Assembly (NCBI GenBank): GCA_030390025.1
Contig: JASTWF010000034.1
Location: 5,890,001 to 5,954,000 of the forward strand
Reading direction: 5' to 3'
DNA length: 64,000 bases
DNA from: Squalus acanthias
Taxonomy: Eukaryota
Shown here: one piece after another, positions 4,669 to 63,716 of the stretch
Layout: every line of letters starts with the position of its first letter
Numbering within the stretch: position 1 is the first letter of the stretch
Notes under the pieces: generated by a model
The model's input: the letters and a program-made list of their open reading frames with translations, nothing else
Told to the model about the DNA's origin: nothing
The model's database searches: none
Position numbers and translations under genes: made by a program

Positions 4669-4672
4669 TACA

Positions 4673-30447: not shown

Positions 30448-30534
30448 GTGAGTGTGCGATTCATTCTGTTTCTGTCAGTCTCTGGTGCAGTGTATGAGTG
30501 TGCGATTCATTCTGTATCTGACAATCTCTGATAC

Positions 30535-31340: not shown

Positions 31341-31342
31341 AA

Positions 31343-31661: not shown

Positions 31662-31710
<49 letters not shown>

Positions 31711-32960: not shown

Positions 32961-33184
32961 ATTACCACTGTTGCTCCCTCCCGCTCCATACCATTCCTGT
33001 TCCTCACTCTGCTCCAGCTCGGGTTCCCCAGCCACAGTTCCTCTGCCGTTTGTTCCAGGTAGTCCAGGGTCCACTTTGCTGGACAGGTCACAGCGGGGTC
33101 TAAGAGTAGAGGAAGATTCAGAAGTCAAACACCATTTAAAGTGAAAACGGTCAGAGCGGCCGTAATCACCCTCAGGACCTTAAC

Positions 33185-34752
33185 CACAATGTCCAGTGTC
33201 AGTGACCCTGTGTCCACAATGCCCAGGGTCAGTGACCCTGTACACACAATGCCCAGGGTCAGTGGCCCTGTACCCACAATGCCCAGTGTCAGTGACGCTG
33301 TACCCACAATGCCCAGGGTCAGTGACCCTGTGTCCAAAATGCCCGGGGTCAGTGACTCTGTACCCACAATGCCCAGGGTCAGTGGCCCTGTACCCGCAAT
33401 GCCCAGGGCGAGTGACTCTGTACCCACAATGCCCAGTGTCAGTGACTCTGTACCCACAATGCCCAGTGTCAATGACCCTGTACCCACAATGCCCAGTGTC
33501 AATGATCCTCTGCCCACTGTGCCCAGTGTCAGTGACTCTGTACCCACAATGCCCAGGGTCAGTGACTCTGTACCCACAATGCCCAGTGTCAATGACCCTG
33601 TACCCACAATGTCCAGTGTCAATGACTCTGTACTCACAATGCCCAGTGTCAATGACCCTGTATCTACAATGCCCAGTGTCAATGACCCTGTACCCACAAT
33701 GCCCGGGGTCAGTGACTCAGTATCTACAATGCCCAGTGTCAATGACCCTGTACCCACAATGTCCAGTGTCAGTGACCCTGTACCCACAATGTCCAGTGTC
33801 AGTGACCCTGTACCCACAATGCCCGGGGTCAGTGACTCAGTATCTACAATGCCCAGTGTCAATGACCCTGTACCCACAATGCCCAGTGTCAATGACACTG
33901 TACCCACCATTGCCCGGGGTCAGTGACCCTGTACCCACAATGCCCGGGCTCAGTGACGCTGTACCCACAATGCCCAGTGTTAGTGACTGTACCCACAATG
34001 CCCGGGGTCAGTGGCCATGTACCCACAATGCCCAGTGTCAATTATCCTGTGCCCACAATGCCCGGGCTCAGTGACGCTGTACCCACAATGCTCAGTGTCA
34101 ATGACCCTGTACCCAAATTGCCCGGGGTCAGTGGCCCTGCACCCACAATGCCCAGTTTCAATGTTCCTGTGCCCACAATGCCCAGGGTCAGTGGCCCTGT
34201 ACCCACAATGCCCATTGTCAGTGACTCTGTACCCACAATGCCCGGGGTCACTGGCCCTGTACCCACAATGCCCAGTGTCAATGATCCTGTACCCACAATG
34301 CCCGGGGTCAGTGGCCCTGTACCCACAATGCCCAGTGTCAATGATCCTGTACCCACAATGCCCATTGTCAGTGACTCTGTACCCACAATGCCCGGGGTCA
34401 GTGGCCCTGTACCCACAATGCCCAGTGTTAATGATCCTGTGCCCACAATGCCCGGGCTCAGTGACGCTGTACCCACAATGCCCAGTGTTATTGACTCTGT
34501 ACCCACAATGCCCAGTGTCAGTGACCCTGTACCCACAATGCCCGGGGTCAGTGACTCTGTACCCACAATGCCCAGTGTCAATGATCCTGTGCCCACAATG
34601 CCCATTGTCAGTGACTCTGTACCCACAATGCCCGGGCTCAGTGACGCTGTACCCACAATGCCCGGGGTCAGTGACCCTGTACCCACAATGCCCAGTGTCA
34701 ATGATCCTGTGCCCACAATGCCCGGGGTCAGTGACGCTGTACCCACAATGCT
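33185..34752. repeat. 30-bp intronic minisatellite, about 52 units
   Basis: Unit CAGTGACCCTGTACCCACAATGCCCAGGGT. Confidence 0.97.
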
Positions 34753-35214
34753 GAGTGGCCCGTCCACATACCGGTCACCTGGGCGATGAACTCCATTGAC
34801 CAATCGGCTTCACTGTCGGCCTGCGATGTGTCTGCCGTCGGCTCGGTGGCCAGAAACTCCTCGACCCAGGTCCCCGACATCGCCAGGTCTGCCACAACGG
34901 GGGCTTGGGGTGTGAAAACAGGGCCCGAATCTGGGCAGGAAACACCCAGGCTCCATCTCCGGCCTGTGCTGATTTGACCCTCTGCTCCCAGGGGTGATCT
35001 TACCTCACTGCTGAGCCTGTCAAAGCCTCAGTTCTCAACCTCCTGCATCTCCGCCAGCAGGTCGTCCATCTTGAACGTGTGGGGTGCGCGGGGCAGCAGC
35101 GGGCCATTCTGATCAGTCACGAACTCCGAGACTAACTGCAAGAGAGAGAGGCGGCAATTAGACCCACACAATGATGGGTGCCCACCCCTGAAATGTCCCC
35201 TCCCGGAGTGGTTA

Positions 35215-35470
35215 CTGAGATCCCCCACACAAACAGTGCAGGAAAGTCCCAAACTCCATCCCCGGCCTGTGCTGAGTTAGCCTGATCTCCTCCGGTGAGG
35301 GACTGTGACCCCCACACACAGAGCAGGAAAGGCCCAGGCTCCATCCCCGGCCTGTGCTGAGTTAGCCTGATCTCCCCCGGTGAGGGTCTGTGACCCCCAC
35401 ACACAGAGCAGGAAAGGCCCAGGCTCCATCCCCGGCCTGTGCTGAGTTAGCCTGATTCTCGCCCGGTGAA
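35215..35470. repeat. About 86-bp intronic repeat, 3 units (paralog at 63800-63980)
   Basis: GGAAAGGCCCAGGCTCCATCCCCGGCCTGTGCTGAGTTA. Confidence 0.85.
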
Positions 35471-35714
35471 TGGAGCCTGGATTACAGGCTGACACAATAA
35501 CCATCTTTGTCCTCTCAGGCAGATCCCAGTGGCTTGGAGACCTGGAATATGGCATGGACTGGTTGGGCCGAATGGCCTGTTATCGTCAAAGAGACATTTT
35601 ATAATTCTGAGGGAGAGGGATTGAGAGAGAGAGGCACAGGAGGCGTAAATATTATAGTTATAGTCATAGATTTGCATTACTGATTGATATTATTTATTAT
35701 CTATTTCTAATAGC

Positions 35715-36745
35715 TCTTTAATGGGCATATAATTGGCAAATGAAATTTAACACACATGAACCTGAGGTGTTACATTTTGGTAAGAAATGTAGAGAGGTCA
35801 CATATTACTTGGAAAATAAGAATCTAAATGGGGTAGAGGATCAAAGGAATCTCGGAGTACAAATACACAAATCACTGAAAGTAGCACAACAGGTTAATAA
35901 GGCTATAAAAAGCAAACCAATCACTCGGGTTTATATCTGGAAAGGTAGAATTGAAAAGTAGTGAATTTATGCTAAACTTGTATCGAACCTTGTTTAGACC
36001 ACACTTGGAAAACTGTGTACAGTTCTGGTCGCTGTATTCTAAAAAGGATAGAGGCACTGGAGAGGGTGCAGAGAAGATTTACATGGATAATACCAGAAAA
36101 GCTAGGGTGACTTAGAAGTATATCGCCGATTCTTCATCGTCGCTGGGTTAAAATCCTGGAACTCCCTACCTAACAGCACTGTGGGAGCACCATCACCACA
36201 CGGACTGCAGCGGTTCAAGAAGGCGGCTCACCACCACCTTCTCAAGGGCAACTCGGAATGGGCAATAAATGCTGGCCTTGCCAGCGGTGCCCAGATCCCT
36301 TAAACGAATAAAACAAAATACATATCAGGAACGGATGAAAACGTTGGGTCTCCTTTCTCTTGAAGGCTGAGGGGTGACCTGATAAAGCTCTTTAAAATGA
36401 GGAAAGGTTTTGATGGAGTGGATACAGAGAGAATGTTTCCACTTGTGGGGAACAGCAAAATTAGAGGCCATCAATATAAGGCAGTCACCAAGAAATCAAA
36501 TAGGGAATTCAGAAGAAACCTCTTTACCCAGAGAGTGGTGAGAATGTGGAACTCGCTACCACAGGGAGTGGTTGAAGCGAATAGTATTGATGCATTTAAG
36601 GGGCAGTTAGATTAGCATATGTGGGAGAAGGGAATAGAGGTTTACGCTGATAGAATTAGATGAGGTAAGACGGGAGGAGGCTCGAGTGGAGCATAAACGC
36701 TGGCATGGACTGTATGGGTCGAATGGCCTGGTTCTGTGCTGTATA
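35715..36745 (+). mobile_element. CR1 3' fragment interrupted by another LINE's 3' end (36107-36315)
   Basis: WQMKFN, RPHLENCVQFW, FTQRVVRMWNSLP; the nested tail matches 4330-4668. Confidence 0.85.
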
Positions 36746-36764
36746 CCCCATATAATCCCCTGTT

Positions 36765-37630
36765 ACAGAGTAAAGCTCTCATCAAATACCTCCAGGGCAG
36801 GTACAGTGGGTTAGATACAAAGTTCAGCTCCCTCTACACTGTCCCATCAAACACTCCAAGGGCAGGGACAGCACGGGTGAGATACAGAGTAAAGCTCCCT
36901 CTACACTGCCCCACCAAACACTCCCAGGGCAGGTACACCACGGGATAGATACAAAGTAAAGGTCCCTCTAAACTGTCCCATCAAACATTCCCAGGGCAGG
37001 TACAGCACGGAATAGATACAGAGTAAAGCTCCCTCTACATTGTCCCATCAAACACTCCCAGGGCAAGTACAGCACGGGTTAGATACAGAGTAAAGCTCCC
37101 TCTACACTGCCCACCAAACATTCCCAGGGCAGGTACAGTGGGTTAGATACAGAGTAAAGCTCCCTCTACACTGCCCACCAAACATTCCCAGGGAAGGTAC
37201 AGTGGGTTAGATACAGAGTAAAGCTCCCTCTACACTGTCCCATCAAACATTCCCAGGGCAGGTACAGCACGGGTTAGATACAGAGTAAAACACCCTCTAC
37301 ACTGTCCCATCAAACATTCCCAGGGCAGGAACAGCACGGGTTAGATACAGAGTAAAGCTCCCTCTACACTGCCCCACCAAACATTCCAAGGGCAGGTACA
37401 GTGGGTTAGATGCAGAGTAAAGCTCCCTCTGCACTGTCCCATCAAACATTCCCAGGGAAGGTACAGTGAGTTAGATACAGAGTAAAGTTCCCTCTACACT
37501 GTCCCATCAAACACTCCCAGGGCAGGTACAGCACAGGTTAGATAGAGAGTAATGCTCCCTCTACACTGTCCCACCAAACATTCCAAGGGCAGGTACAGCA
37601 CGGATTAGATACAGAGTAAAGTTCCCTCCA
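36765..37630 (+). repeat. 67-bp satellite array
   Basis: Same unit as 16770. Confidence 0.95.
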
Positions 37631-37946
37631 ATTTGGTTCATCAACACAACCAACTCTGATTCATCATGTGTTCAATGCAGCGTACAGCTCCCTTGACACT
37701 ACCCAATGAAGCACAACCAGCTCGGGTACAGCATGGGGTGAATACAGAATAAAGATCCCTCTACATGTAAGTGTCAAACACTCCCGGGTGAGGTACGGGC
37801 AAGGTTTATCTCCGAGTTAAGCTCCGCTCAACTTGCCACATCAAAGGCCGAGCCTGACGGCAGATGTTGAACGGCTCCCAGTATCTGGTTAGACTCTCAT
37901 CTCAGCAAAATGCTGGACTGATGGGATTCTCAGTAAAGTTCCTCAC

Positions 37947-38460
37947 CTTTCCAATCATTGTTGAAGCTTCCCGTTTTATCCCGTCGCCGACACTGGGGGT
38001 CTCGATCCCACCAGATCTGCTCTGTGAAACCAGAGACATTTCTCCAGTCCCAGTCAGTGAGGCGATGATTCGACTTCTCTCTCTCCACCTTCCTGAGATA
38101 TTGCTCACTCCCAGAGACTGTCAATAGAAACATGATTCATATTAATCCCAGATCCAGTCCCTGGAATACAGTGGGGCTGTTTTTGTGACTGGGATTGTAT
38201 CTAATTTCATTATCTTTGCAATTAATGTGTATTTCAATTACTTACATTAATATTAAATTGTTCCATTCAGCCCTTTGCCCTGTTTATTGGGACTAAACTC
38301 ACTGCCAGTGTCAGCTGTCACTCCAGCTCCTCCCACACTGACGGGCCGTAACCAGGGGCGGGGCCCTGTTTCCAAGTGACATCACACAGGAGCAGGGAGC
38401 CAATCAGTCAAAGAGCAGCCTGGAAAACTATTAAAGCGGCCAAGCCCCTCCCAATCCCCC
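37947..38460 (-). other. Promoter/exon cassette copy B (exon 37947-38117, ATG 38039, splice sites intact)
   Basis: MSLVSQSRSGGIETPSVGDGIKREASTMIGK|GTGAGG; upstream donor at 38302; GGGGCGGGG, TGACATCA and CCAAT. Confidence 0.65.
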
Positions 38461-38471
38461 CGGGGCAGGTA

Positions 38472-41400: not shown

Positions 41401-41720
41401 CTTAGATTTGTACTCTCTATCCCTTCCCGTCACGGTCTGTTTATCATTTCCCATATTAATACCTTTCTCTCTTGTCTTGTTTCTACTCTTTGAATTACCA
41501 CATCTTCCCAGATTTGATCCCTGGCCCCCAATATTTAGTTGAAAGCCCTCTCTACCGCCCTAGTTATAGGACTCGCCAGAACACTGGTCCCAGCACGGTT
41601 CAGGTGAAGACCAACCCAACGGTACAGATCGCACATTCCCCAGTACTGGTGCTAGTGCCCCAGGAAGCGAAACCAATTTCTCCCATACCAGTCTTTGAGC
41701 TACGCATTCATCTCTCTAAT
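38472..41720 (-). mobile_element. CR1 LINE with almost complete ORF2 and the end of ORF1, decayed
   Basis: ORF1 esterase-like GLHLNRAG; ORF2 YLNARSI, ITETWL, SDHNMIEF, SPGPDG, DFQKAFD, KFADD and tail. Confidence 0.95.
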
Positions 41721-43890: not shown

Positions 43891-44200
43891 TAACTCTTTA
43901 TAACGTTAGAATCCTTAATAAACATTTACAAAAGGTGTATAACGGGTTATTAAGGATTATAATGATTTATAAAGGGTCATGTCCCTTTATCATATAATGC
44001 ATCACTTTGTACCCCATTCAAATCCCTTTATAATCCTTTGTCAATCATTATAACACTTTATAAGCCTTTGTCGATCACTACAAGCCTTTATATTCCTTAA
44101 CAATTCATATTCCAATATCAACATTTATATATCATTATAATACTTTATATTCATTTATAATAATTTATAACCCAGCATAATCCTTTATAACCCTTTATAA
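43890..44200. repeat. AT-rich low-complexity tract
   Basis: Recurrent TTATAA/CTTTAT words. Confidence 0.6.
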
Positions 44201-44204
44201 AGCG

Positions 44205-45268: not shown

Positions 45269-45964
45269 CAGTGTAGGATCCGTTGACTTGTTAGCCCTCC
45301 CCAAATGCATTACCTCACACTTCTCCGGATTGAATTCCATTTGCCACAATCTTCCTGCATGCAGCATGAGTTATACACAGAGTAAAGCTCCCTTTACACT
45401 GCCCAATCAAACAGTCTAATGGCAGGTACAGTACGGGTTAGAGAGAGAGATACAGAGTAAAGCTCCCTTTACAATGCCCAATCAAACAGTCCAAGGGCAG
45501 GTACAACACGGGTTAGATAGAGAGATACAGAGCAAAGCTCCCTTTACAATGCCCAATCAAACAGTCCAAGAGCAGGTACAGCACGGGTTAGATACAGAGA
45601 TACAGACTAAAGCTTCCTCTACACTGTCCACTCAAACACTCGCAGCGCAGGTACAGCGCGGGTGACTTGCAAAGTCCCCTCTAATACAGCATGTGCAGCG
45701 TACAGCTCCCTTGACACTACCCAATGAAGCACAACCAGCTCGGGTACAGCATGGGATGAACACAGAATAAAGATCTCACTACATGCAAGTGTCAAACACT
45801 CCCGGGTGAGGTACGGGCAAGGTTTATCTCCGAGTTAAGCTCCGCTCAACTTGCCACATCAAAGGCCGAGCCTGATGGCAGATGTTGAACAGCTCCCAGT
45901 ATCTGGTTAGACTCTCACCTCAGCAAAATCCTGGACTGATGGGATTCTCAGTAAAGTTCCTCAC

Positions 45965-46450
45965 CTTTCCAATCATTGTTGAAGCTTGCCGTTTTATCCC
46001 GTCTCCGACAGTGGGGGTCTCGATCCCACCAGATCTGCTCTGTGAACACAGCGACATATCTCCAGTCCCAGTCAGTGTGGCGATGATTCGACTTCTCTCT
46101 CTCCACCTTCCTGAGATATTGCTCACTCCCAGAGACTGTCAATAGAAAAATTATTCATGTTAATTCCGGAATACAGGGGGAGCATTTTTGTGTCCATAAA
46201 TATATTCAATTTGATTATTTTTGCAATTAATCAGTGTGTTTGAATTACTTACTTTAATATTGAATAGTTCTTTTCTGTCCATTGCCCTGTTTATTGGGAC
46301 TAAACTCACCCCCAGTGTCAGCTGTCACTCCAGCTCCTCCCACACTGACATTCCACTGATGGGCCGTAACCAGGGGCGGGGCCCTGTCTCCAGGTGACAT
46401 CACACAGCAGCCAGGAACGATGTCACAAAGCGGCCGGAGCCACTCCCACT
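45965..46450 (-). other. Promoter/exon cassette copy C (exon 45965-46135 intact; CCAAT segment deleted)
   Basis: MSLCSQSRSGGIETPTVGDGIKRQASTMIGK with AG/GT intact. Confidence 0.6.
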
Positions 46451-46759
46451 CGAGGTGGCACAGGGTCACATTGACCAGGGTCTGCTCCTGGTGTGCAGTC
46501 TCACTGGGCATGAACACAGGGTGTACAATCAGCCCCGTCTCCGGGAATGAACCGGGATCCTGCCCTACATCTCTCCCGAGTTTTATTTCCATCGGTGTAA
46601 AATGGATGGCTGATTCACAATTACCCGTTTTGTACTATAGCACCTACTAAACGTCAAACTCTACCCCAGTATTTCTTTCCTTCTCTACGTATCTGCTCCA
46701 TCGCTGTCTCTGCCTCTCTCCACAGTGAGGGATCCGTCTGGGGCTGGGATCATACTGTG

Positions 46760-47042
46760 CGGAAAAGACCAGAATATCAGTCAGTCTCTCTTCCCGCTCC
46801 CACATCGTTACCTCTGGTGTCCCCCAAGGATCTCTCCTTGCCTCCCCTCCTATTTCTCATCTACATGTTGCCCCTTGGTGACATCATCCAGAAACACAGT
46901 CAGTTTCCACATGTACGCTGACGACACCCAGCTCTACCTCACTACCTCTTCTCTCGACCCCTCCACGGTGTCTAAATTGTCAGACTGCTTGACTGACATG
47001 AGCAAAAGTTTCTCCAAGTAAATATTGGGAAGACCGAAGCCA
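46760..47042 (+). mobile_element. L2-type LINE RT fragment
   Basis: SGVPQGS..., FHMYADDTQLYL. Confidence 0.8.
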
Positions 47043-47420
47043 TTAATCCCAGAATACAGGGGGGGCATTTTTGTGACCAAATTTATATTCAATGTGATTA
47101 TTTTTGCAATTAATGAGTGTTTGAATTACTAACTTTAATATTAAATTGTTCTTTTCTGTCCATTGCCCTGTTTATTGGGACGAAACTCACCCCCAGTGTC
47201 AGCTGTCACTCCAGCTCCTCCCACACTGACATCCCACTGATGGGCCATAACCAGGGGCGGGGCACTGTCTCCAGGTGACATCACACAGCAGCAAGGAGCG
47301 ATGTCACAAAGCGGCCGGAGCCCCTCCCACTCGAGGTGTCACAGGGTCACATTGACCAGGCTCTGCTCCTGGTGTGCAGTCTCACTGGGCATGAACACAT
47401 GGTGTACAATCAGCCCCGTC
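47043..47420 (-). other. Partial cassette copy C' (promoter, first exon and intron only)
   Basis: Direct duplicate of about 46160-46540, sharing the CCAAT deletion. Confidence 0.7.
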
Positions 47421-47439
47421 TACGACCCCGCTCCCCTCA

Positions 47440-47908: not shown

Positions 47909-47919
47909 GTGCAAATACG

Positions 47920-48583
47920 ATAGCAAAATACTGCGGATGCTGGAAATCTGAAATAACAACAGAAAACGCTGGAAAAACTCAGCAGGCCAGGCAGCATCCG
48001 TGGAGAGAGAAAGAGAGTTAACGTTTCAGGTCGATGACCTTTCATCAGAACTGTGAAGAGCCGGAAATCAAATAGATTTAAGGCCAGAGTAAAGCTGGGA
48101 AAAGGGGGAGGGGATAAAAGAACAAAGGGGAAGATGAAGAGACATTAAGAGACATTGAGAGATATGCAAGGCTAGAGGTGGTGTAAATGTGACAGATTAA
48201 GGCTGAAAGAAGTGTGAAATCCACTGGCAGAATGAAGGACAGCTGCCAGCTTCTAGGAGGAAAAAAAAAGGTGGGGGAGGGGCAAATAAAAGGGTGGAAA
48301 AAATAAAATATAAATGTGATTGCAGCTGAGGTAATGATCTAAAATTGTTGAACTCGATATTGAGTCCAGAGGGCTGTAGCGTGCCTAAACGAAAGATGAG
48401 GTGCTGTTCCTCGAGCTTACGCTGCGCTTCCGTGGAACAGTGTAATAGGCCGAGGACGGTGAGGTCAGAGTGGGAGTGAAGCGGTGAATTAAAGTGACAG
48501 GCCACCGGGAGCTCGGGGTCCCCCTTACGGACTGAACGGAGGTGTTCCGCAAAGCGGTCACCCAATCTGCGTTTGGTCTCCCC
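47920..48583 (-). mobile_element. Penelope-like element 3' part (GIY-YIG endonuclease C-terminus and terminal repeat)
   Basis: GETKRRLGDRFAEH...PVACHFN...RKLEEQHLIFRLGTLQPSGLNIEF. Confidence 0.9.
48016..48052 (-). ncRNA. Minimal type I hammerhead ribozyme motif
   Basis: AGTT-CTGATGA-A-AGGTC(ATC)GACCT-GAA-ACGT-T-AACT: stem I, catalytic core, stem II and a palindromic rudimentary stem III. Confidence 0.75.
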
Positions 48584-48599
48584 CAAAAAAGTGCTTCTG

Positions 48600-49150
48600 C
48601 TGCAGTTGCAGAGGGCCGCGCATGCGCCCTGACCCCGCCCTGTCCAAGATGGCGGCGCGGGGAAAAGTCCCGCCTTCCTTCACCAATATGGCGGCCGGTT
48701 GCCGGGGTAACCCGGGCCTGTTGCCGGGGAGAAAGCCTTCAGCAAGTTGGTGGCCAGTCGCCCCGCTTACCCGGGCGGCCGGGCCTGGCGCTGCGGCGCA
48801 AACACGAGGCCCCGCGGGGTCTTATTCGGGGCCTGAGGCCCAGCCCGGGTGTTTGTGAAGCTTCCCAGACCCCGCGTGCCACCTGTTCCTCCCCGGCCCC
48901 CAGAATCTCCTGCCGCCTCTTGAATCGTTTGTTCGGCCATTAGTACAACAGGAAATGCTCTGACAAAGTTATCGACCTGAAACGTTGTCAATTTTTCTCT
49001 CCCGCGATGTTCCTGCTGCCGCCATTGCCTCGTCTGCACCACTCGTACTGCGCATGCTCGGAGCACTCCCCGTCCCCGCGCCTGCGCACTGGACTCCTGT
49101 AGTCATTGATTGGGCACTTTCTGCCGCGCGGGGGATCGTGGGTAAAAACA
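48600..49150. promoter_or_regulatory. CpG-island-like promoter with a possible minus-strand first exon (48940-48771)
   Basis: GCGCATGCGC (NRF1) 48618, CAAGATGGCGGC (YY1) 48645, AATATGGCGGC 48685, GTTGCCGGGGTAAC (RFX) 48698, GC boxes, CCAAT; donor CGG|GTAAGC at 48770. Confidence 0.65.
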
Positions 49151-49174
49151 CCGCCATTGAATGCCACAAACAAG

Positions 49175-52245: not shown

Positions 52246-53920
52246 ATTAATATTTTGCATCTGTGTTCACTATGGAGAAGGACGATGGAGGCATAGAAAT
52301 CAGGCAGGGGGATTGTGATATACTTGAACAAATTAGTATTGAGAGGGAGGAGGTACTCGCGGTTTTAGCGGGCTTAAAAGTGGATAAATCCCCACACCCT
52401 GACGGAATGTATCCCAGGCTGCTGTGTGAGGCAAGGGAGGAGACTGCAGGGGCTCGGACACAAATTTTCAGAACCTCTCTGACCACAGGGGAGGTGCCAG
52501 AGGACTGGAGAACAGCTAACGTGGTACCATTGTTCAAGAAGGGTAGTAGGGATAAACCAGGGAATTACAGGCCAGTGAGCCTAACATCAGTGATAGGGAA
52601 ATTATTGGAAAAAATTCTGAGGGACAGAATTAGTCTCCACTTGGAGAGGCAAGGATTAATCAGGGATAGTCAGCATGGCTTTGTCAGTGGGAGATCATAT
52701 CTAACCAATGTGATTGAATTTTTTGAGGGGGTGACTAGGTGTGTGGATGACGATAGTGCAGTTGATGTCGTCTACATGGTCTTCAGTAAGGCTTTTGATA
52801 AAGTCCCACATGGGAGACTGGTCACGAAGGTAAGAGGCCATGGGATCCAGGGCAATTTGGCACATTGGATTCAAAATTGGCTTAGTGGCAGGAGGCAGAT
52901 GGTGATGGTCGAAGGTTGTTTTTGTGACTGGAAGCCTGTGTCCAGTGGTGTAACGCAGGGAAAGGTCTGTGTCCTTTGCTGTTTGTAGTGTACATTAATG
53001 ATTTAGATATGAATGTAATTTCGCAGATGACACGAAAATTGGTGGAGTGGTAAATAGCGAGGAGGGAAGCCTCAGGCTACAGGACGATATAGACGGGATG
53101 GTTAGATGGGCAGAACAGTGGCAAATGGAATTTAACCCTGAAAAGTGTGAGTGATGCATTTTGGGAGGACAAACAAGGCAAGGGAATACACAATGAATGG
53201 TAGGACCCTAGGAAGGACAGAGGATCAGCGGGACCTTGGCGTGCATGTACATAGATCCCTGAAGGCAGCAGGGCAGGTAGATAAGGTGGTTAAAAAGGCA
53301 TATTGGATATTAGCCGAGGCATACAATATAAGAGCAGGGAGGTTATGATGGAGCTGTACAAAACGCTAGTTTGGCCACAGTTGGAATACTGTGTGCAGTT
53401 CTGGTCACCACACTATAGCAGGGATGTGATTGCATTGGAGAGGGTGCAGAGGAGATTCACCAGGTTGTTACCTGGGCTGGAGCGTTTCAGCTGTGAAGAG
53501 AGACTGGACAGGCTGGGGTTGTTTTCCTTAGAGCAGAGAAGGCTGAGGGGGGACCTGATTGAGGTGTACAAAAGTATGAGGGGCATAGCTAGGGTGGATA
53601 AAAAAGAAATTCTTCCCTTCGTAGAGGGGTCAATAACCAGGGGGCATAGTTTCAAGGTAAGGGGCAGGAGGTTTAGAGGGGATTTGAGGCAAATCTTTTT
53701 CACCCAGAGGGTGGTTGGAATCTGGAGCTCACTCCCTTAAAGGTGGTAGAGGCAGCAACGCTCACAACATTGAAGCAGCATTTAGATGAGCACTTGAAAC
53801 GCCATAGCATACAAGGCTAGGGACCAAGTGCTGGAAAATGGGTTTGGAATAGACAGGGCTTGATGGCCGGTGCAGACACGATGGGCCGAAGGGCCTCTTT
53901 CTGTGCTGTATAACTCTATA
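52245..53920 (+). mobile_element. CR1 RT and 3' end (duplicate of 18655-20150)
   Basis: Near-identical translation, including the same internal deletion. Confidence 0.95.
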
Positions 53921-54780: not shown

Positions 54781-54825
54781 TTGGTTCATCAACACAACTA
54801 ACTCAGGTGTAGCACGACATGAATC

Positions 54826-55035
54826 TGTCATTCATGACTTATGAAATTATACTGAGTGGCCTGTGGGTGGCGCTGTCCAAGGAGAGTATAAATACTCGGG
54901 CACGGGTCCAGCTTGCGCGGGACATACTTAACCGGAACTAGTGAAGGACACAACTAGTTCTCCATGTTGTAAAACAGTTGATTAAAGCGTTGTTTAACGA
55001 TTAGACCAGGTGCCTAGTAGTTATCTGACGTAACA
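54826..55035 (+). mobile_element. Candidate 210-bp solo LTR
   Basis: TGTCA...TAACA ends, TATAAATA, ATTAAA; absent from the paralogous flank at 37630-37680; no clean target-site duplication. Confidence 0.45.
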
Positions 55036-55318
55036 GCATGTGTTCAATGCAGCGTACAGCTGCCTTGACACTGCCCAATGAAGCACAACCAGCTCAGGTA
55101 CAGCACGGGGTCAATACAGAATAAAGATCCCTATACATGTAAATGTCAAACACTCCCGGGTGAGGTACGGGCAAGGTTTATCTCCGAGTTAAGCTCCGCT
55201 CAACTTGCCACATCAAAGGCCGAGCCTGATGGCAGATGTTGAACAGCTCCCCGTATCTGGTTAGACTCTCACCTCAGCAAATTCCTGGACTGATGGGATT
55301 CTCAGTAAAGTTCCTCAC

Positions 55319-55840
55319 CTTTCCAATCATTGTTGAAGCTTCCCGTTTTATCCCGTCTCCGACACGGGGGGGTCTCGGTCCCACCAGATCTGCTCTGTGA
55401 AACCAGAGACATTTCTCCAGTCCCAGTCAGTGTGGCGATGATTCGACTTCTCTCTCTCCACCTTCCTGAGATATTGCTCACTCCCAGAGACTGTCAATAG
55501 AAAAATGAGACATATTAATCCCAGAATCTCTACCTGTAATACAGCGGGACTGTTTTTGTGTCTGTGATTGTATCTATTATGAAGATATTTGCAATTAATG
55601 AGTGTTTGAATTACTGTAGATAATATTAAATAGTTCTTTTCGGCCCTTTGCCCTGTTTATTGGGACTGAACACTCCCAGTGTCAGCTGTCACTCCAGCTC
55701 CTCCCACAATGACACCCCACTGATGGGCCGTAACCAGGGGCGGGGCCCTGTCTCCAGGTGACATCACAACGGAACCGGGAGCCAATCACACAGCAGCTTG
55801 GAACAATGTCACAAAGTAGCCGTAGCCCCTCCCACTCGCG
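55319..55840 (-). other. Promoter/exon cassette copy D (exon 55319-55490, 172 bp, +1 insertion)
   Basis: Aligns with copies A-C; extra base in the C run. Confidence 0.6.
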
Positions 55841-55849
55841 GGGCAGGTA

Positions 55850-56730
55850 CATAAGAACATAAGAATTAAGAGCAGGAGTAGGCTATTCAGCCCTTCGAGC
55901 CTGCTCTGCCACTCAATAAGATCATGGCTGATCTTTGACCTCAACTCCACTTTCTCGCCTGATCCCCATATCCCTTGATTCCCCTAGAGTCTAAAATTCT
56001 ATCTGTGTCAGCCTTGAATATACTCAAAGACTCAGTCTTCACAGTCCTTTCGTGCAGAGAATTCCAACCCTCTGAGTGAAGAAATTCCTTCTCATCTCAG
56101 TCTTAAATGGCCGACCCCTTATCCTGAGTCTATGCCCCCTAGTTCTAGACTCTCCAGCCAGGGGAAACAATCTCTCAGCGTTTACCCTGTCAATCCCCCT
56201 CAGAATCTTATATGTTTTAATGAGATCACCTTTCATTCTTCTAAACTCCAGAGAGGAGAGGCCCAATCTACTCAATCTCTCCTCATAGGACAATCCTCTC
56301 AACCCAGGGATCAATCTAGGGGACCCTTTGTTGCACCGCTTCTAAGGCATGTATGTCCTTTCTCAGATAAGGAGACTAAAACTGTGCACAACACTCCAGG
56401 TGTGGTTTCACCTAAGCCCTATATAATTGTAGCAAGACTTCCTTACTCTTGTACTCCAACCCCCTTGCAATAAAGGCCAACATGCCATTTGTCTTTCTAA
56501 TTGCTTGCTGTACCTGCATGCTAACTTTCTATGTTTCCTTTAAGAGGACACCTATATCTCTCTGAACAGCAACATTTAACAGTTTCTCACCATTTAAAAA
56601 TATTGTTTTTCTATTCTTCCGACCAAAGTGAACAGCCTCACATTTCCCCACATTATACTCCATCTGCCACCTTATTGCCCACTCACTTAACAGGTCTATA
56701 TCTCTTCGCAGGCTCTTTGTGTCCTCTTCA
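55850..56730 (-). mobile_element. CR1 3' fragment
   Basis: IPGLRGLSYEERL...RRNFFTQRV and tail. Confidence 0.9.
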
Positions 56731-57344
56731 CACTGGACCCTGAATTAGTTCAAGATGTCCACTCTGACATTCCACCAACATAGTAAGGAGTTTAATCAGA
56801 AAGGAGGACAAGATTTGGTCAACACCAGTGCCATATCAGCTTGGTGCTGGGATGCAGAGATGATGCCTTCCCAGTTTATGTACTTCACTCTGGTAATGTC
56901 CATACAGAATGTTACCAGTTTGGTAAAGACCCAATCCTTGGATGGCCCTGGAGTGGTCAACTGCTATCTAGCCTATGCTCTGAATTGTCTATAGCTGGAT
57001 GTGCACAAATACAAGTGCTTTATTTACTGGATTTTCTTGAGTTGTAAGGAAGTACAACACGTCCAATAAGTAGGATCTGCTGGACTGATCTATGCAACAT
57101 CTTTGACAATCTAGTCACTTGGATCTGGAGCATACAAAATTTGTTTACATAATGCACTTAGTTCTATATCATGGAGCTGTGTGAGCTACATATGAACAAT
57201 TATAATGCAAGGCACCAATCCAGCTTTGCTAATTTAAAAACTACCTTCGTGTGAGAAAATTCACATAAAAGCACTTAACCCAAGGTAAGTTACAGATGCA
57301 TTTAAAATGTTTCCACCGATATGTGGGAGCAGTGCAGAGAATTT

Positions 57345-57715
57345 TATTTTTTTATTTGTTCATGGGATGTGGGCGTCGTTGGCAAGGCCAGCATTTATTA
57401 TCCATCCCAAATTGCCCTCAAGAGAGTGGTGGTGAGCTGCCTTCTTGAACCGTTGCAGTCCATGTGGGGAAGACACTCCCACAGTGCTGTTAGGGAGGGA
57501 GTTCCAGGATTTTGATTCAGCGACGATGAAGGAACGGCGATATTTTTCCAAGTCAGGATGGTGTGTGACTTGGAGGGGGAAAGTGGAGGTGGTGGTGTTC
57601 CCAAGCAACTGCTGCCATTGTCTTTCTAAGCGGTAGAGGTCACAGGTTTTGGAGGTGCTGTTGAAGAAGCCTTGGCGAGTTGTTGCTGTGCATCTTGTTG
57701 ATGGTACACACTGTC
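57345..57715 (-). mobile_element. LINE 3' end
   Basis: Reverse complement of the 4330-4668 tail. Confidence 0.85.
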
Positions 57716-59177
57716 TAGATTGCAGTATTAGGTTTCCTACATGGATTAACACCTGATCTCCATTGCTGCTTTTCTACCAATCTAGTTGAGATTTGCATTT
57801 GGATTGTAAGGAATTGCCAGACTAAACTGTACCCTTGTCTCTATGGTGCAGTGCAGTGTGTTACGACGCCTTAATTTAATAATGTTAGAATGTGAATTGC
57901 TGCCTATCCAGCAGCCAGATAACATTTTTTAAATTAGTTAATATTCTTAATAACTAGGACCTTTAAAGATTACATCAGATTTGTCATCTGAAGAAAGGGT
58001 TCAATACAGCAACAGGTGGAAATTATGCAAAAGAAGTCCAAATGTTTTTCACCAGTTAAGTCAGAAGACAGTATGATAGCCCAAGATTTGCTGTTTGCCT
58101 CCTTTAACATACTGCTATTAATCACCTATTTTCGATAAAAACACACTGTATGAGCATTGGGAAGATAAATGGTAATTTCTTGGTTGGATGCCCAAGTCCA
58201 ATAAATACAAAAATATCTTTCTACTGCCAATCCTAGTCTGTGTCAAGCTATTTTTAACCACTGCTTAGATGAGATTTTTATAACATGATCGAAATTACCA
58301 TTTTCTGCTGGCTATTTCAACTGATGACAGACAAGCATAGCTGTGTGTCCTCCACTGCACCAGGGTATACAGGCAATAATTATGTTACTTTAACCATCAT
58401 GATGCTGGCTCATAAAACATATAATTATTTGAAATTACTAGAAATTTAAGAGACAACAAAGCAGCTTCTCAAACTTGAATTAACAGCGGACCATTAAGGA
58501 TAAATTGCAACCTCAGAAACTCCCTCTACAGCTGGCAAAAAGCCAAAGGAGATCGGAACATATAAAAAGAGTAAATCGATGGATGCCTCAAGGATCAAGT
58601 AATTTTAGCTAAGTTATCCCCAAAGTAACTCTAAACACAGAGTGCAATGGGGTGGGACTTGAATTTTGCAATATAGGATTATTAGCGATAAGCACATGTT
58701 GTCAACTACACAAATAAATTGTCTTTCAATGATACCCCCGTCAAGAGAAATACTATTCAGAACCATGGCTATGAGTAACTCTGAAACAATCAGAAGGACA
58801 GGACAAGACCAAAACATATGCATGAATGCAGCTTCAGCAGATCTTTGTCTTATGGCACTTAATCTGCTATTACCCATAGTACCACATTCTTAACAGTTAA
58901 CGAGGGTTATTCAAGGTGAAAAGTTAGTGCTATTTTGTCTTGGTTTGATTTCCTAAGTGTTTTAAAAAGTTAGTAGTATAAATTATTCTATCTGAATACT
59001 CCTTTAAGTGAATAAACTAACTGATTTGTCCTACACTATTTTTATCTGCTTTGGCAATCATGGTAGGACACCTTAAAAATAAATAATAATGGCGTACAGT
59101 TTCTTTCAATTATTCAGTCTACTGTGACCAAGAAAACAGTACAAAGCCAAAATGAAATGAGAGAAATCAGGTAAAAC

Positions 59178-60235
59178 AGGTACAATACAGAGCTCTCTCT
59201 GCATTACTCCGACAGTGTACCCCCACTTTATACCCAGTGTCAGCATCGAGTGCTCCCAGGGCAGGTACAATACAGAGCTCTCTCTGCATTACTCCGACAG
59301 TGTACCCCCACTTTATACCCAGTGTCAGCATCGAGTGCTCCCAGGGCAGGTACAATACAGAGCTCCCTCTACATTACTCCGACAGTGTACCCCCACTTTA
59401 TACCCAGTGTCAGCATCGAGTGCTCCCAGGGCAGGTACAATACAGAGCTCCCTCTACATTACTCCGACAGTGTACCCCCACTTTATACCCAGTGTCAGCA
59501 TCGAGTGCTCCCAGGGCAGGTACAATACAGAGCTCCATGAACATTACTCCGACAGTGTACCCCCACTTTATACCCAGTGTCAGGATCGAGTGCTCCCAGG
59601 GCAGGTACAATACAGAGCTCCCTCTACATTACCCTGACAGTGTACCCCCACTTTATACCCAGGGTCAGCATCGAGCACTCCCAGGGCAGGTACAATACAG
59701 AGCTCCCTCTACATTACCCTGAGAGTGTACCCCCACTTTATACCCAGTGTCAGCATCGAGTGCTCCCAGGGCAGGTACAATACAGAGCTCCCTCTACATT
59801 ACTCCGACAGTGTACCCCCACTTTATACCCAGTGTCAGCATCGAGTGCTCCCAGGGCAGGTACAATACAGAGCTCCATGAACATTACTCCGACAGTGTAC
59901 CCCCACTTTATACCCAGTGTCAGGATCGAGTGCTCCCAGGGCAGGTACAATACAGAGCTCCCTCTACATTACCCTGACAGTGTACCCCCACTTTATACCC
60001 AGGGTCAGCATCGAGCACTCCCAGGGCAGGTACAATACAGAGCTCCCTCTACATTACCCTGAGAGTGTATCCCCACTTTATACCCAGTATAAGCAGCAAG
60101 CACTCCCGGGGCAGGTACAATAAGGAGCACCCTGTACAATACCCTAACAGTGTCCCCCCACTTTATACCCAGTGTCAGCATGGAGCGCTCCCGGGGTAGG
60201 TACAATAAAGAGCTCCATCTATATTACACTGACAT
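59178..60235 (+). repeat. 85-bp tandem repeat, about 12 units
   Basis: Same unit as 32670; a 340-bp four-unit block is duplicated. Confidence 0.95.
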
Positions 60236-60271
60236 TAACATTATTACTACCTCCCTCTCCCCGCTCCGTAC

Positions 60272-60380
60272 CAATTCTGTTCCTGACTGTGCTCCAGCTC
60301 GTGTTCCCCCAGCTAAAGTTTCTCTTCTGTATGTTGCAGGTATTCCTGGGCCCACTTCGCTGGGCAGGACACAGCAGGCT
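60272..60380 (-). pseudogene. PEX5: PEX5 copy 2: single exon of 109 bp with an in-frame TAG
   Basis: CAG|EPAVSCPAKWAQEYLQHTEEKL*LGEHELEHSQEQNW|GTACGG. Confidence 0.88.
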
Positions 60381-60464
60381 CTGCGGGGGGACAGGAAGTG
60401 TCAGAGGTCAAACACCATTTAAAGTTATACACCCACAGGCCGCTTTAATCACCCTCAGGACCTT

Positions 60465-61110
60465 TCCCACAATGCCCAGTGTCAGTGACGCTGTATCCAC
60501 AATTCCCAGGGGCAATGACCCTGTACCCACAATGCCCAGGGGCAGTGACCATTTACCGACAATATCCAGGGTCATTGAGCTTACCCACAATGCCCAGTGT
60601 CAGTCCCTTGTTCCCACAATGCCCAGGGTCAGTGACGCTGCATCCACAATGCCCAAGGTCAGTGACCCTGTACCCACAATGCCCAGGGTCAGTGACGCTG
60701 CATCCACAATGCCCAAGGGCAGTGACCCTGTACCCACAATGCCCAGGGGCAGTGATAATTTACCGAAAATGTCCAGGGTCATTGAGCTTACACAAACTGC
60801 CCAGTGTCAGTCCCCTGTACCCACAATGCCCAGAGTCAGTGACATTCTACTCACTATTCCTGAGGGTCAGTTACCTTACCCACAATACCCAAGGTCATGA
60901 CCCGTTCCCACAAGGCCCAGGGTCAGTGACCCAGTACCCACAAGATTCAGGATCAGTGATCTGTACCCACAATGCCCAGGATCAGTCACCCAGTACCCAC
61001 AAGGCCCACGTTCAGTGATCTGTACCCACAATGCCCAGGATCAGTCACCCAGTACCCACAAGGCCCAGGGTCAGTGATCTGTATCCACAATGCCCGAGTT
61101 CAGTGACCCA
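60465..61110. repeat. Degenerate 30-bp minisatellite
   Basis: Same unit as 33185. Confidence 0.9.
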
Positions 61111-61406
61111 CAAACAGAACCAACTCTGATACATCATGTGTTCAATGCAGCATACAGTTCCCCTGTCACTGCCCAATGAAGCACAACCAGCTCAGGTACA
61201 GCATGGGGTGAATAAAGATCCCATTACCTGTAAGTGTCAAACACTCCCAGGTGAGGTACGGGCAATGTTTATCTCTGAGTTAAGCTCCGCTCAACTTGCC
61301 GCTTGAGGTGAGCCTGACAACAGATGTTGAACAGCTCCCAGTATCTGGTTAGATTCGCACCTCGGAAAATTCCTGGACTGGTGGGATTCTGAGTAAAGTT
61401 CCTCCC

Positions 61407-61845
61407 CTTTCCAATCATTGTTGAAGCTTCCCGTTTTTTCCCATCTCTGACACTGGGGGTCTCGATCCCACCAGATCTGCTCTGTGAAACCAGAGACATT
61501 TCTCCAGTCCCAGTCAGTGAGGCGATGATTCGACTTCTCTCTCTCCACCTTCCTGAGATATTGCTCACTCCCAGAGACTGTCAATAGAAAAATGATTCAT
61601 ATTAATCCCAGAATCTGTAACTGGAATACAGTGGGACTGTTTTTGTGACTGATTATATTTAATTTGATTAAACTCACTGCCAGTGTCAGCTGTCACTCCA
61701 GCTCCTCCCACACTGACATCCTACTGATGGGCTGTAACCAGGGGCGGGGCCCTGACTCCAGGTGACATCACAAAGGAACCGGGAGCCAATCACATGGCAG
61801 CCTGGAACAATGTCACAAAGTGGCCATCGCCCCTCCCACTACCGG
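61407..61845 (-). other. Promoter/exon cassette copy E (exon 61407-61577; donor GT changed to GG)
   Basis: MSLVSQSRSGGIETPSVRDGKKREASTMIGK then GGGAGG; all promoter motifs present. Confidence 0.6.
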
Positions 61846-62560
61846 AGCAGGTACAATACAGAGCTCCCTCTACATTACCCTGACAGTGTCCCCCCACTTT
61901 ATACCCAGTGTCAGCATCGAGCACTCCCAGGGCAGGTACAATACAGAGCTCCCTCGACATTACCCTGAGAGTGTCCCCCCACTTTATACCCAGTGTCAGC
62001 ATCCAGCACTCCCAGGGCAGGTACAATACAGAGCTCCCTCTACATTACCCTGAGAGTGTACCCCCACTTTATACCCAGTGTCAGCATCCAGCACTCCCAG
62101 GGCAGGTACAATACAGAGCTCCCTCTACATTACCCTGAGAGTGTACCCCCACTTTATACCCAGTATCAGCATCCAGCACTCCCAGGGCAGGTATAATACA
62201 GAGCTCCCTCTACATTACCCTGACAGTGTCCCCCCACTTTATCCAAATGTCAGCATCCAGCACTCCCAGGGCAGGTATAATACAGAGCTCCCTCTACACG
62301 ACCCTGACAGTGTCCCCCCACTTTATCCAAATGTCAGCATCCAGCACTCCCAGGGCAGGTATAATACAGAGCTCCCTCTACATTACCCTGACAGTGTCCC
62401 CCCACTTTATACCCAGTGTCAGCATCCAGCACTCCCAGGGCAGGTATAATACAGAGCTCCCTCTACATTACCCTGACAGTGTCCCCCCACTTTATACCCA
62501 GTGTCAGCATCGTGCACTCCCAGGGCAGGTACAGTACCGAGCTCCCTCTACATTACCCTG
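61845..62560 (+). repeat. 85-bp tandem repeat, about 8 units
   Basis: Same unit as 32670. Confidence 0.95.
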
Positions 62561-62593
62561 ACATTACCACTGTTACTCCCTCCCGCTCCATAG

Positions 62594-63716
62594 CATTTCT
62601 GTTCCTCACTCTGCTCCAGCTCGGGTTCCCCAGCTACAGTTCCTCTGCCGTTTGTTCCAGGTATTCCAGGGTCCACTTTGCTGGACAGGCCACAGCGGGG
62701 TCTAAGGGTAGAGGAAGGTTCAGAAGTCAAACACCATTTAAAGTGAAACAGTCAGAGCGGCCGTAATCACCCTCAGGACCTTAACCACAATGCCCAGGGT
62801 CAGTGACCCTTTACCAACAATGCCATGGGGCAGTGACCCTGTACCCACAATGCTCGGGGTCAGTGGCCCTGTACCAACAATGCCCGGGGTCAGTGTCCCT
62901 GTACCCACAATGCCCGGGTTCAGTGAACCTATACCCACAATGCCCGGGGTCAGTGTCCCTGTACCCACAATGCCCGGGGTCAGTGAACCTATACCCACAA
63001 TGCCCAGGGTCAGTGTCCCTGTATCCACAATGCCCGGGGTCAGTGACCCTGTACCCACAATGCCCGTGGTCAGTGACCCTGTACCCACAATGCCATGGGG
63101 CAGTGGCCCTGTACCCACAATGCCCGGGGTCAGTGTCCCTGTACCCACAATGCCCGGGGTCAGTGAACCTATACCCACAATGCCCGTGGTCCGTGACCAT
63201 GTACCCACAATGCCCGTGGTCAGTGACCCTGTACCCACAATGCCATGGGGCAGTGGCCCTGTACCCACAATGCCCAGTGTCAGTGTCCCTGTACCTACAA
63301 TGCCCGGGGTCAGTGTCCCTGTACCCACAATGCCCTGGGTCAGTGAACCTATACCCACAATGCCCGGGGCTGTGACCCTGTACCACAATGCCCGGGGTCA
63401 GTGACCCTGTACCCACAATGCCCGGGGTCAGTGTCTCTGTACCCACAATGCCCGGGGTCAGTGACCCTGTACCCACAAAGCCCGTGGTCAGTCACACACA
63501 TACACGGAAAGGCCCAGGCTCCATCCCCGGACTGTGCTGAGTTGTTTCCCTGCTCCACCCTCTACTCCCAGGGGTGATCTTACCTTGCTGCGGAGCGTGG
63601 CGAAGTCTCGAGTTCTCAATCTGCTGCATCTCCGCCAGCAGGTCGTCCATTTTGAATGTTTGAGGTGCCCGGGGCAGCAGCGGCCCATTCTGCTCAGTCA
63701 CAAACTCCGAAACTAA
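62594..63716 (-). pseudogene. PEX5: Partial PEX5 copy 3 (may continue past the window end)
   Basis: Intact 133-bp exon 63716-63584 [44 protein letters not shown]; exon 62701-62594 with TAG, a 1-bp deletion and a dead donor; the exon between them is missing. Confidence 0.92.
62785..63490. repeat. 30-bp minisatellite, about 23 units
   Basis: Same unit as 33185. Confidence 0.95.

What the first reader, a model, noticed from the sequence alone, without database searches (positions are those of the whole stretch)
32992..63716. Amplified, truncated PEX5 N-terminal exons (three copies) that the ORF track does not resolve
Seen: spliceable minus-strand exons at 35541-35506, 35135-35004, 34903-34772, 33099-32992, 60380-60272, 62701-62594 and 63716-63584. 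They have canonical AG acceptors, consistent phases and WxxxF/Y motifs (WVEEF, WSMEF, WAQEY). Known: PEX5, the peroxisomal PTS1 receptor, is normally single-copy; its N-terminal WxxxF/Y motifs bind PEX14/PEX13 and its C-terminal TPRs bind cargo. Inference: the docking half, without TPR exons, was repeatedly duplicated at the DNA level (introns are retained) and each copy stops after the same exon.
Basis: partly seen in the sequence, partly recalled or inferred. Interest (0 to 1): 0.75.

Follow-up and report, generated by a model that had tools for sequence, protein, structure and literature searches.

The report
Dead PEX5 fragments amplified in shark
Three broken partial copies of the peroxisome import-receptor gene PEX5 lie here, and all end at the same junction with a promoter-like module; they are likely dead passengers of a repeat copied tens of times in a shark genome, not a new family of short PEX5 proteins.

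Summary
The seven exons are real PEX5 exons at the stated coordinates, closest to shark PEX5, with introns retained. They are not a spliceable set: 5 of 7 carry stops, 1-nt deletions or lost donors, and no copy has an open frame. They cover only about residues 50-186. The start/Cys11 exon and all TPR exons are absent from the window, though copy B runs off its edge. All three copies stop after the same exon because they share one junction: intron-6 satellite joined to a promoter-like module with a 171-nt, probably non-coding exon. That is one breakage copied on, not repeated truncation. Public contigs show an intact, spliced PEX5 elsewhere, two high-depth fragment subfamilies (roughly tens of copies), and only unspliced paralog pieces in RNA-type runs. 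Copy A differs from the intact gene as a dead copy would (dN/dS about 0.67). One loose end: copy B's exon 4 is open and rich in synonymous changes, which hints at past or present constraint in one subfamily. This scan already noted PEX5 fragments and the module 1.9 and 4.2 Mb away in this genome. Verdict: an amplified unprocessed pseudogene fragment, modest interest.

The parts
35506..35541 (-). Copy A, PEX5 exon 3 (numbering recalled from human, start codon in exon 2); TGA at 35517, donor lost (GA)
35004..35135 (-). Copy A, PEX5 exon 4 with LVSEF (W0-type) motif; 1 nt short, TGA at 35030
34772..34903 (-). Copy A, PEX5 exon 5, open, WVEEF and WSMEF; 11 differences from the intact spliced gene
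33184..34751 (.). 30-bp satellite of PEX5 intron 5 (copy A, 52 units)
32992..33099 (-). Copy A, PEX5 exon 6; 1-nt deletion near 33025, motif changed to WTLDY
32673..32961 (.). 85-bp satellite of intron 6 (copy A), ending at the shared junction
31341..32662 (+). LINE fragment (CR1-like; label recalled) inserted just inside the junction of copy A
30815..31343 (-). Promoter-like module after copy A; 171-nt exon at 31082-30912; shares an 85-column intron deletion with the module after copy B
37643..38454 (-). Module upstream of copy A; 171-nt exon at 38117-37947 with AG and GT; 5' end keeps a remnant of the 85-bp satellite
45679..47331 (-). One whole (exon 46135-45965) and one partial module with a different, non-PEX5 upstream sequence
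55033..55849 (-). Module belonging to copy C (exon 55490-55319, 1-nt insertion)
55850..59176 (-). 3.3-kb insertion splitting copy C's junction, the same 8 letters on both sides, LINE 3' end next to the module
59177..60234 (.). 85-bp satellite of intron 6 (copy C, 12 units)
60272..60380 (-). Copy C, PEX5 exon 6, full 109 nt, WAQEY, in-frame TAG
60466..61109 (.). 30-bp intron-5 satellite in which copy C begins
61110..61846 (-). Module directly joined to copy B; 171-nt exon at 61577-61407, donor lost (GG)
61847..62563 (.). 85-bp satellite of intron 6 (copy B, 8.5 units)
62594..62701 (-). Copy B, PEX5 exon 6; same 1-nt deletion as copy A, TAG, donor lost (CT); 96% identical to copy A
62785..63495 (.). 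30-bp intron-5 satellite of copy B; exon 5 deleted at its 5' edge
63584..63716 (-). Copy B, PEX5 exon 4, full 133 nt, open, AG and GT intact; 86% identical to copy A, rich in synonymous differences
63717..64000 (-). Copy B intron 3, running off the window about 14 nt before where exon 3 would end

Best explanation
These are broken, intron-containing pieces of PEX5 (exons 3-6) that share one junction with a promoter-like, 171-nt-exon module, and they were likely spread as dead passengers when that cassette was copied many times. Shown: the lesions; the shared junction; an intact spliced PEX5 in public contigs; high-depth contigs of two fragment types. Inferred step 1: one rearrangement joined the 85-bp satellite of PEX5 intron 6 to the module over a few shared letters, which cut off exon 7 onward. 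Inferred step 2: the cassette was amplified into at least two subfamilies, by unequal exchange in the 30-, 67- and 85-bp satellites. Copy A is one type, copy C the other, and copy B is a mosaic joined where exon 5 was lost. Inferred step 3: most copying of the A type came after its exon-6 frameshift, so it spread a dead sequence. Inferred step 4: if the module's promoter reads into the fragments, the RNAs would meet early stops and be non-coding or degraded.
For: Lesions in 5 of 7 exons; no copy is open. No start-codon exon and no exon after exon 6 scores clearly above the reversed control (one 9-residue match at 7636 is discussed under noticed). Same junction in 3 of 3 copies: direct in B, split by a LINE in A, split by a 3.3-kb insert with matching 8-letter ends in C. 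The modules at 46450 and 47330 have a different upstream. The modules after A and B share an intron deletion. RNA-type contigs of two studies (X15 record 10, X19 record 16) join exons 4-5-6 and go on into the next PEX5 exon, and the X19 contig also joins exon 3. They supply the base missing in A and B. Against them copy A has 20 amino-acid-changing and 9 synonymous differences (hand tally of 29 of 32; dN/dS 0.67), and copy C about 7 and 2 (0.9; approximate). In DNA run X1 the frame-restoring base at 33025 is seen in depth 38.7 of 1626, plus 19.2 of 1656 for an insertion at 33030. The intact-gene letters at 33066 and 33070 are seen in 86 and 56 of 1529. Contigs at depth 475, 290, 281 and 239 stand beside many at 17-44. 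All 3 of 3 paralog-type exon pieces shown in RNA-type runs run into introns. B is 96% like A in exon 6 but 86-90% in exon 4 and its flanks.
Against: Copy B's exon 4 is open, has both splice sites, and differs from the intact gene at 9 synonymous and 6 amino-acid sites (hand tally; 2 differences unlisted). That gives p 0.001 against no selection, but only p 0.06 against a dead copy compared with a constrained gene. Its synonymous divergence from A (9 of 29) exceeds the intron flanks (14 of 139; p 0.006). Copy B's 5' end is outside the window, and the whole genome was not available, so open copies elsewhere are not excluded. Losing the 132-nt exon 5 keeps the frame, as in the annotated isoform P0001. 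Contig depth is not a copy number, contigs drop rare variants, and the tables were cut (290 and 20 rows not shown). The recombination mechanism is inferred from where the breaks lie.
Confidence: 0.85

Rival explanations
1. One subfamily (B-type exon 4, C-type exon 6) was for a long time, or still is, a translated short PEX5 paralog driven by the captured module; the window holds only its decayed members. The product would carry W0-W3 but no TPRs and no Cys11, so it would bind PEX14 without cargo and could not recycle.
For: Open exon 4 with a synonymous excess. The B-type exon 4, a diverged exon 5 and a C-type exon 6 acceptor occur at similar depth in X1 (281, 290, 239), as one cassette would. 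The module's exon has an ATG in the frame that meets exon 4 in phase. A homologous exon is part of spliced gene models in horn shark. W0 and the N-terminal WxxxF/Y motifs are the ones needed for import, and Cys11 for recycling (bioRxiv 10.1101/2022.05.31.494222, passages).
Against: Copy C's exon 6 has TAG and diverged from the intact gene at dN/dS about 0.9. The depth-290 exon-5 contig leaves the exon before its donor and runs into satellite-like letters (loose end at 34788). The only B-type piece in an RNA-type run is unspliced on both sides (X19 record 21). The module's exon shows no coding constraint in either open plus-sense frame (dN/dS 0.97 and 0.66), and the horn-shark model switches frame inside it. 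The synonymous excess rests on 15 differences.
Confidence: 0.07
2. The cassette is kept as a non-coding transcription unit: the module's promoter makes spliced RNAs that include PEX5 exons, and these RNAs, not a protein, have a role such as tuning PEX5.
For: Every PEX5 piece lies in sense with a module. The first 81 nt of the module's exon differ by only 2.7% between copies, against 9-18% for the rest and the flanks. A homolog is annotated as spliced in horn shark.
Against: No joint from a PEX5 exon to the module was seen in the two RNA-type runs laid on exons 4-6. Splice sites are lost in several copies. The low divergence can come from gene conversion. Nothing shows a function.
Confidence: 0.05
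3. The PEX5 piece was captured and spread by a transposable element rather than by satellite-mediated segmental duplication.
For: PEX5 fragments are noted megabases apart on this sequence piece (earlier notes), and the cassette has a fixed 3' junction.
Against: The copies begin at different places inside satellites or LINE debris. The masked self-comparison shows no inverted ends around the cassette. The copies lie head to tail on one strand.
Confidence: 0.02
4. The copies are an assembly artefact.
For: The region is rich in satellites, and some single letters of copy A are not shared by most contigs (32996, 33062).
Against: The copies differ by 4-19% with their own insertions. A-type and B-type sequences occur in independent contigs of two DNA samples and of a second organism label.
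Confidence: 0.01

Closest known systems
Vertebrate PEX5 (shark proteins P0121/P0001/P0002 Carcharodon, P0003 Scyliorhinus, P0006 Heptranchias)
   Same: Exon sequence (for example 36 of 43 residues identical to P0006 in exon 5, 36 of 44 to P0121 in exon 4), exon order, and motifs W0-W3 (PMC8086558, passages).
   Different: No start/Cys11 exon, no W4-W7 and no TPRs in the window; stops, frameshifts, lost donors; many copies.
Unprocessed partial pseudogenes carried in segmental duplications (class recalled; human cases in PMC6169893, passages)
   Same: Introns kept, truncated at both ends, lies beside foreign exons and a foreign promoter, parent gene intact elsewhere.
   Different: Copy number looks like tens, in two subfamilies with mosaics, and the breaks fall in intronic satellites.
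HYDIN2 (PMC5345166, abstract and outline) and SRGAP2C/CHRFAM7A-type truncated duplicates (PMC6169893, passages)
   Same: An internal block of exons without its own promoter or last exons, placed behind a new promoter-like sequence; a truncated product could act against the parent.
   Different: Those are shown to be transcribed and spliced, some with function; here no spliced paralog RNA was seen and no copy in the window is open.
Horn-shark 'uncharacterized protein' models XP_067865009-13 (P0132, P0134-P0136)
   Same: They contain a homolog of the 171-nt module exon over its whole length (E down to 1e-19).
   Different: They change reading frame inside the exon and continue into unrelated sequence, not PEX5.

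Membership tests
Functional PEX5 (PTS1 receptor) | N-terminal exon with start codon and Cys11 | tested here: not met
   No such exon in the window; copy B's 5' end lies outside the window, so this is shown only for A and C.
Functional PEX5 (PTS1 receptor) | LVxEF and WxxxF/Y motifs | tested here: met
   W0-W3 present across the copies; W4-W7 absent (definition).
Functional PEX5 (PTS1 receptor) | C-terminal TPR domain | tested here: not met
   No profile segment after residue about 186 scores above 6.2 bits in the window; reversed control up to 7.8.
Functional PEX5 (PTS1 receptor) | Open frame and intact splice sites | tested here: not met
   5 of 7 exons carry lesions; 0 of 3 copies open.
Unprocessed partial pseudogene in a segmental duplication | Parent introns retained | tested here: met
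   Introns 3-6 and their satellites are shared between copies.
Unprocessed partial pseudogene in a segmental duplication | Disabling mutations | tested here: met
   Four stops, three 1-nt deletions, two lost donors, one deleted exon.
Unprocessed partial pseudogene in a segmental duplication | Intact parent gene elsewhere | tested here: met
   Spliced contigs in X15 and X19 continue past exon 6; the locus itself was not located (no genome).
Unprocessed partial pseudogene in a segmental duplication | Neutral divergence | tested here: inconclusive
   Fits for A (dN/dS 0.67) and C (about 0.9); B exon 4 is about 0.2 (hand tallies).
Unprocessed partial pseudogene in a segmental duplication | Flanking non-parent sequence copied along | tested here: met
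   The module and its junction follow 3 of 3 copies.
Expressed truncated or fusion duplicate gene (HYDIN2/SRGAP2C type) | Active promoter upstream | not testable with these tools
   CCAAT-, CRE- and GC-box-like words are visible (labels recalled); activity not measured.
Expressed truncated or fusion duplicate gene (HYDIN2/SRGAP2C type) | Spliced paralog or fusion transcript | tested here: inconclusive
Expressed truncated or fusion duplicate gene (HYDIN2/SRGAP2C type) | Retained open frame | tested here: not met
   None of the three window copies; other copies not seen.
Processed (retro)pseudogene | Introns removed | tested here: not met
   Exons are separated by introns.

The most novel reading that the evidence does not exclude
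A shark lineage fused the PEX14-binding segment of PEX5 (W0-W3) to an old promoter-exon module and amplified it. One subfamily, of which copy B's open, synonymous-rich exon 4 is a piece, still encodes a short receptor decoy with no cargo domain and no Cys11. Such a protein would occupy the peroxisomal docking complex and tune matrix-protein import: a multi-copy natural inhibitor of peroxisome import.
Probability: 0.06. Interest if true: 0.78.

Novelty: new member of a known kind. Interest (0 to 1): 0.27.

Why it matters
As read here it matters modestly. It shows a piece of a normally single-copy housekeeping gene turned into a repeat family of probably tens of copies. It also gives a clean example of how one junction in an intronic satellite makes many copies 'stop after the same exon'. 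In practice these fragments can mislead PEX5 annotation and read mapping in sharks; the four named shark PEX5 models found all lie on contigs of 14-531 kb and two are partial. If the constrained-subfamily reading held, it would be a natural inhibitor of peroxisomal import, which would be new to peroxisome biology.

Tried and rejected
Whole-genome count and location of the intact locus: not possible, no genome held. PDB sequence search: exon 4 found no PEX5 chain; exon 5 found the human PEX5 peptide 2w84_B weakly (E 0.076). Pfam gave 0 families for the three PEX5 peptides and three module frames. Rfam: 0 matches in the window. Module exon as protein: frame 0 no hit; both frames only chance-level Atlas hits; the second frame found 3 proteins, of which P0131 and P0133 are repeat-driven noise and P0132 is the horn-shark model. 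A coding role for it was rejected on dN/dS and frame switching. No RNA holder was listed for 34752-35980; this is no evidence either way. Run X12 (organism G) laid 0 contigs on exon 6; this can be false, so the age of the amplification is open. Runs with small shares that I did not lay were not used. Short PEX5-like proteins: 8 hits, one from a shark (P0123, Mustelus, partial, exons 4-6 on a 13.9-kb contig); whether it is a paralog or a cut-off parent could not be told. Gene conversion as the source of the TAG shared by B and C was rejected: the diagnostic site 2 nt upstream differs, so a recurrent change is likelier. Whether the LINEs upstream of the modules at 55849 and 38454 are one insertion is unresolved (72% identity over 904 columns). 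Literature: four searches (listings only) showed no paper on amplified PEX5 fragments. Most subscription papers are not in the library. Look-ups of earlier findings by sequence or place found nothing.
Full report
Setting. The window has no N, 47.7% G+C, and is full of LINE fragments and 30- to 85-bp satellites. The best named protein matches are from sharks, so I take it as shark DNA (inferred). No whole genome was held.

The observation. The peptide of 63716-63584 finds PEX5, shark proteins first (82%, E 9e-15; 400 of 402 candidates pass). TBLASTN with three shark PEX5 proteins places the exons on residues about 50-186. I call them exons 3-6 after the human numbering, which is recalled. A sliding profile of 15 of the fetched PEX5 proteins scores them at 23-81 bits (10.8 for the 36-nt exon), against at most 7.8 on the reversed window. 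Nothing downstream of exon 6 scores above 6.2. For the start-codon exon there is only a 9-residue match at 7636-7610 (11.3 bits, TBLASTN E 2-3) beside a transposon, with no flanking likeness; I take it as probable chance.

The exons are broken. Copy A (35541-32992): exon 3 has TGA and GA in place of GT; exon 4 is one base short and has TGA; exon 5 is open; exon 6 is one base short. Copy B (63716-62594): exon 4 is open; exon 5 is deleted; exon 6 has the same deletion as A, a TAG, and CT in place of GT. Copy C (60380-60272) is exon 6 alone, with TAG. So 5 of 7 exons carry lesions and 0 of 3 copies are open. Copy B runs off the window about 14 nt before exon 3 would end, so its 5' part is unknown. 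The motifs kept are W0-W3 of the eight in human PEX5 (PMC8086558, passages). The window lacks Cys11, which recycling needs (bioRxiv 10.1101/2022.05.31.494222, passages).

Why all copies stop after exon 6. A module of about 0.5-0.8 kb occurs five times whole and once in part, always on the minus strand. It has promoter-like words (labels recalled), a short first exon and a 171-nt second exon. After exon 6 each copy enters the 85-bp satellite of intron 6 and then this module at the same point. In B the join is direct. In A a LINE sits just inside it. In C a 3.3-kb insert splits it, with the same 8 letters on both sides. The module upstream of A keeps a stub of the satellite, while the modules at 46450 and 47330 have a different upstream. 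The modules after A and B also share an 85-column deletion. One junction, copied on, explains the common end. The 85-bp satellite resembles the 67-bp satellite that follows the module (score 107, 200 shuffles at most 88), which offers a substrate for unequal exchange (inferred). B is a mosaic: exon 6 and its flank are 96% like A, exon 4 and its flanks 86-90%.

What the module is. Its exon shows no coding constraint among four indel-free copies (23 changes; dN/dS 0.97 and 0.66 in the two open sense frames). One word-based search found nothing. A full search with the second frame found horn-shark gene models that hold the whole exon but change frame inside it. I read it as an older, spliced, probably non-coding shark exon.

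Public runs. The search listed 21 runs; 20 hold the stretch or part of it, and none is on record as RNA. I laid 5 of the 21. Two RNA-type runs from two studies hold a spliced contig (1762 and 749 nt). It joins exons 4-5-6 (and exon 3 in X19), has the base that A and B lack, and continues into a next exon reading AEEYRPEDEL (my translation of the loose end). This is the intact gene, and 1384 nt lie beyond exon 6 in the longer contig. All three paralog-type exon pieces shown in these runs run into introns: X15 record 9 and X19 record 21, X19 record 10 (depths 4-9 against 58-77). They may be DNA or unspliced RNA. In one search, 7 of 9 laid X15 records and 6 of 6 X19 records were shown; the rest of those shown are short hits to a common repeat in intron 4.

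Copy number. In DNA run X1 a contig identical to copy A over 206 nt has depth 475. A B-type exon 4, a diverged exon 5 and a C-type exon-6 acceptor have 281, 290 and 239. Eight other contigs lie at 17-44. If about 39 is one locus, this means some 20-30 copies; if about 19, twice that. The tool warns that depth is no copy number, so 'tens' is the claim. At 33025 the frame-restoring base is seen in 38.7 of 1626 depth, so the amplified A type carries the frameshift (short contigs can hide a gap). In exon 4 an extra base near 35027 is seen in 467 of 807; it restores the length but by my reading leaves the TGA. Copy A's own deletion there may be private or an assembly slip.

Selection. By hand tally from the tables on the codon map, copy A differs from the intact gene at 20 amino-acid-changing and 9 synonymous sites (29 of 32 differences placed; dN/dS 0.67). 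Copy C differs at about 7 and 2 (0.9). Both fit a dead copy set against a constrained gene. Against my reading: B's exon 4 gives 6 and 9 (about 0.2; p 0.001 against neutrality, p 0.06 against dead-versus-constrained). Its synonymous distance from A exceeds that of the flanking introns (9 of 29 against 14 of 139; p 0.006). Some of its replacements match the human protein P0037. This is the hint that note e1-9166065 also raised. It may record an old functional duplicate that later broke up, or chance in 15 changes. The same subfamily's exon 6 in the window has TAG, and its exon-5 contig leaves the exon before the donor, which speaks against a living gene.

Comparison and verdict. It works like an unprocessed partial pseudogene in a segmental duplication and meets the tested features of that class, except that neutrality is unclear for one exon. 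It fails membership of functional PEX5. It resembles HYDIN2 in layout, internal exons behind a foreign promoter (PMC5345166, abstract; PMC6169893, passages), but no spliced paralog RNA or open frame is shown. Zebrafish is described with one Pex5 and two Pex5-related proteins (PMC8919083, passages). Four literature searches (listings only) showed no report of amplified PEX5 fragments. The Squalomix preprint (passages) describes more tandem duplication in larger elasmobranch genomes but does not name PEX5 in its main text. The scan itself had already noted such fragments and the module elsewhere in this genome. New member of a known kind; interest 0.27; decoy reading 0.06.

Noticed in passing
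window 7610-7636 (-): Nine codons read PLMKLTSHF, 8 of 9 identical to the start of shark PEX5; 11.3 bits against a control maximum of 7.8, but TBLASTN E 2-3 and no flanking likeness; lies beside a transposon. Probably chance.
   Followed up: partly
window 9385-10313 (+): Class A GPCR open frame (7tm_1, E 1.8e-16) whose N-terminal part lies in another frame (9385-9696), so probably frameshifted; looks like the expanded shark GPR139-like family (label recalled and in earlier notes).
   Followed up: partly
window 3920-7230: Harbinger-type transposon remains (label recalled): Myb/SANT frame on +, DDE_Tnp_4 frame on - (E 3.9e-26), with a 54-bp, 31-unit tandem array between them.
   Followed up: partly
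window 48450-49150: CpG island (62% G+C, CpG observed/expected 0.86 against 0.36 for the window) with housekeeping-promoter-like words; no gene attached was looked for.
   Followed up: no
window 38117-38037 and the four other module exons: The first 81 nt of the 171-nt exon differ by 2.7% between copies against 8.8% for the rest and 13-18% for the flanks: constraint on a non-coding element, or gene conversion.
   Followed up: partly
window 32662, 38479, 55856: LINE 3' ends sit at or beside the satellite-module junction in three of the four junction-bearing copies, in both orientations; this may be a preferred insertion site.
   Followed up: partly
window 34935-34975: A 40-nt stretch of PEX5 intron 4, related to the 85-bp repeat of intron 3, reaches depth about 30,000 in DNA runs: a genome-wide repeat, also seen in RNA-type runs.
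   Followed up: no
window 18665-20147 and 52292-53770: A 1.5-kb LINE segment occurs twice at 94% identity beside 67-bp satellite, a recent local duplication.
   Followed up: no
window 25806-30453: A 4.6-kb array of a 40-bp unit (121 copies) with 28-bp variants, just past the module after copy A.
   Followed up: no
P0123 (Mustelus asterias, XP_078065033.1): A partial PEX5-like model that covers exons 4-6 and ends after exon 6, on a 13.9-kb contig; it could be the same kind of fragment in another shark or just a cut-off parent.
   Followed up: partly
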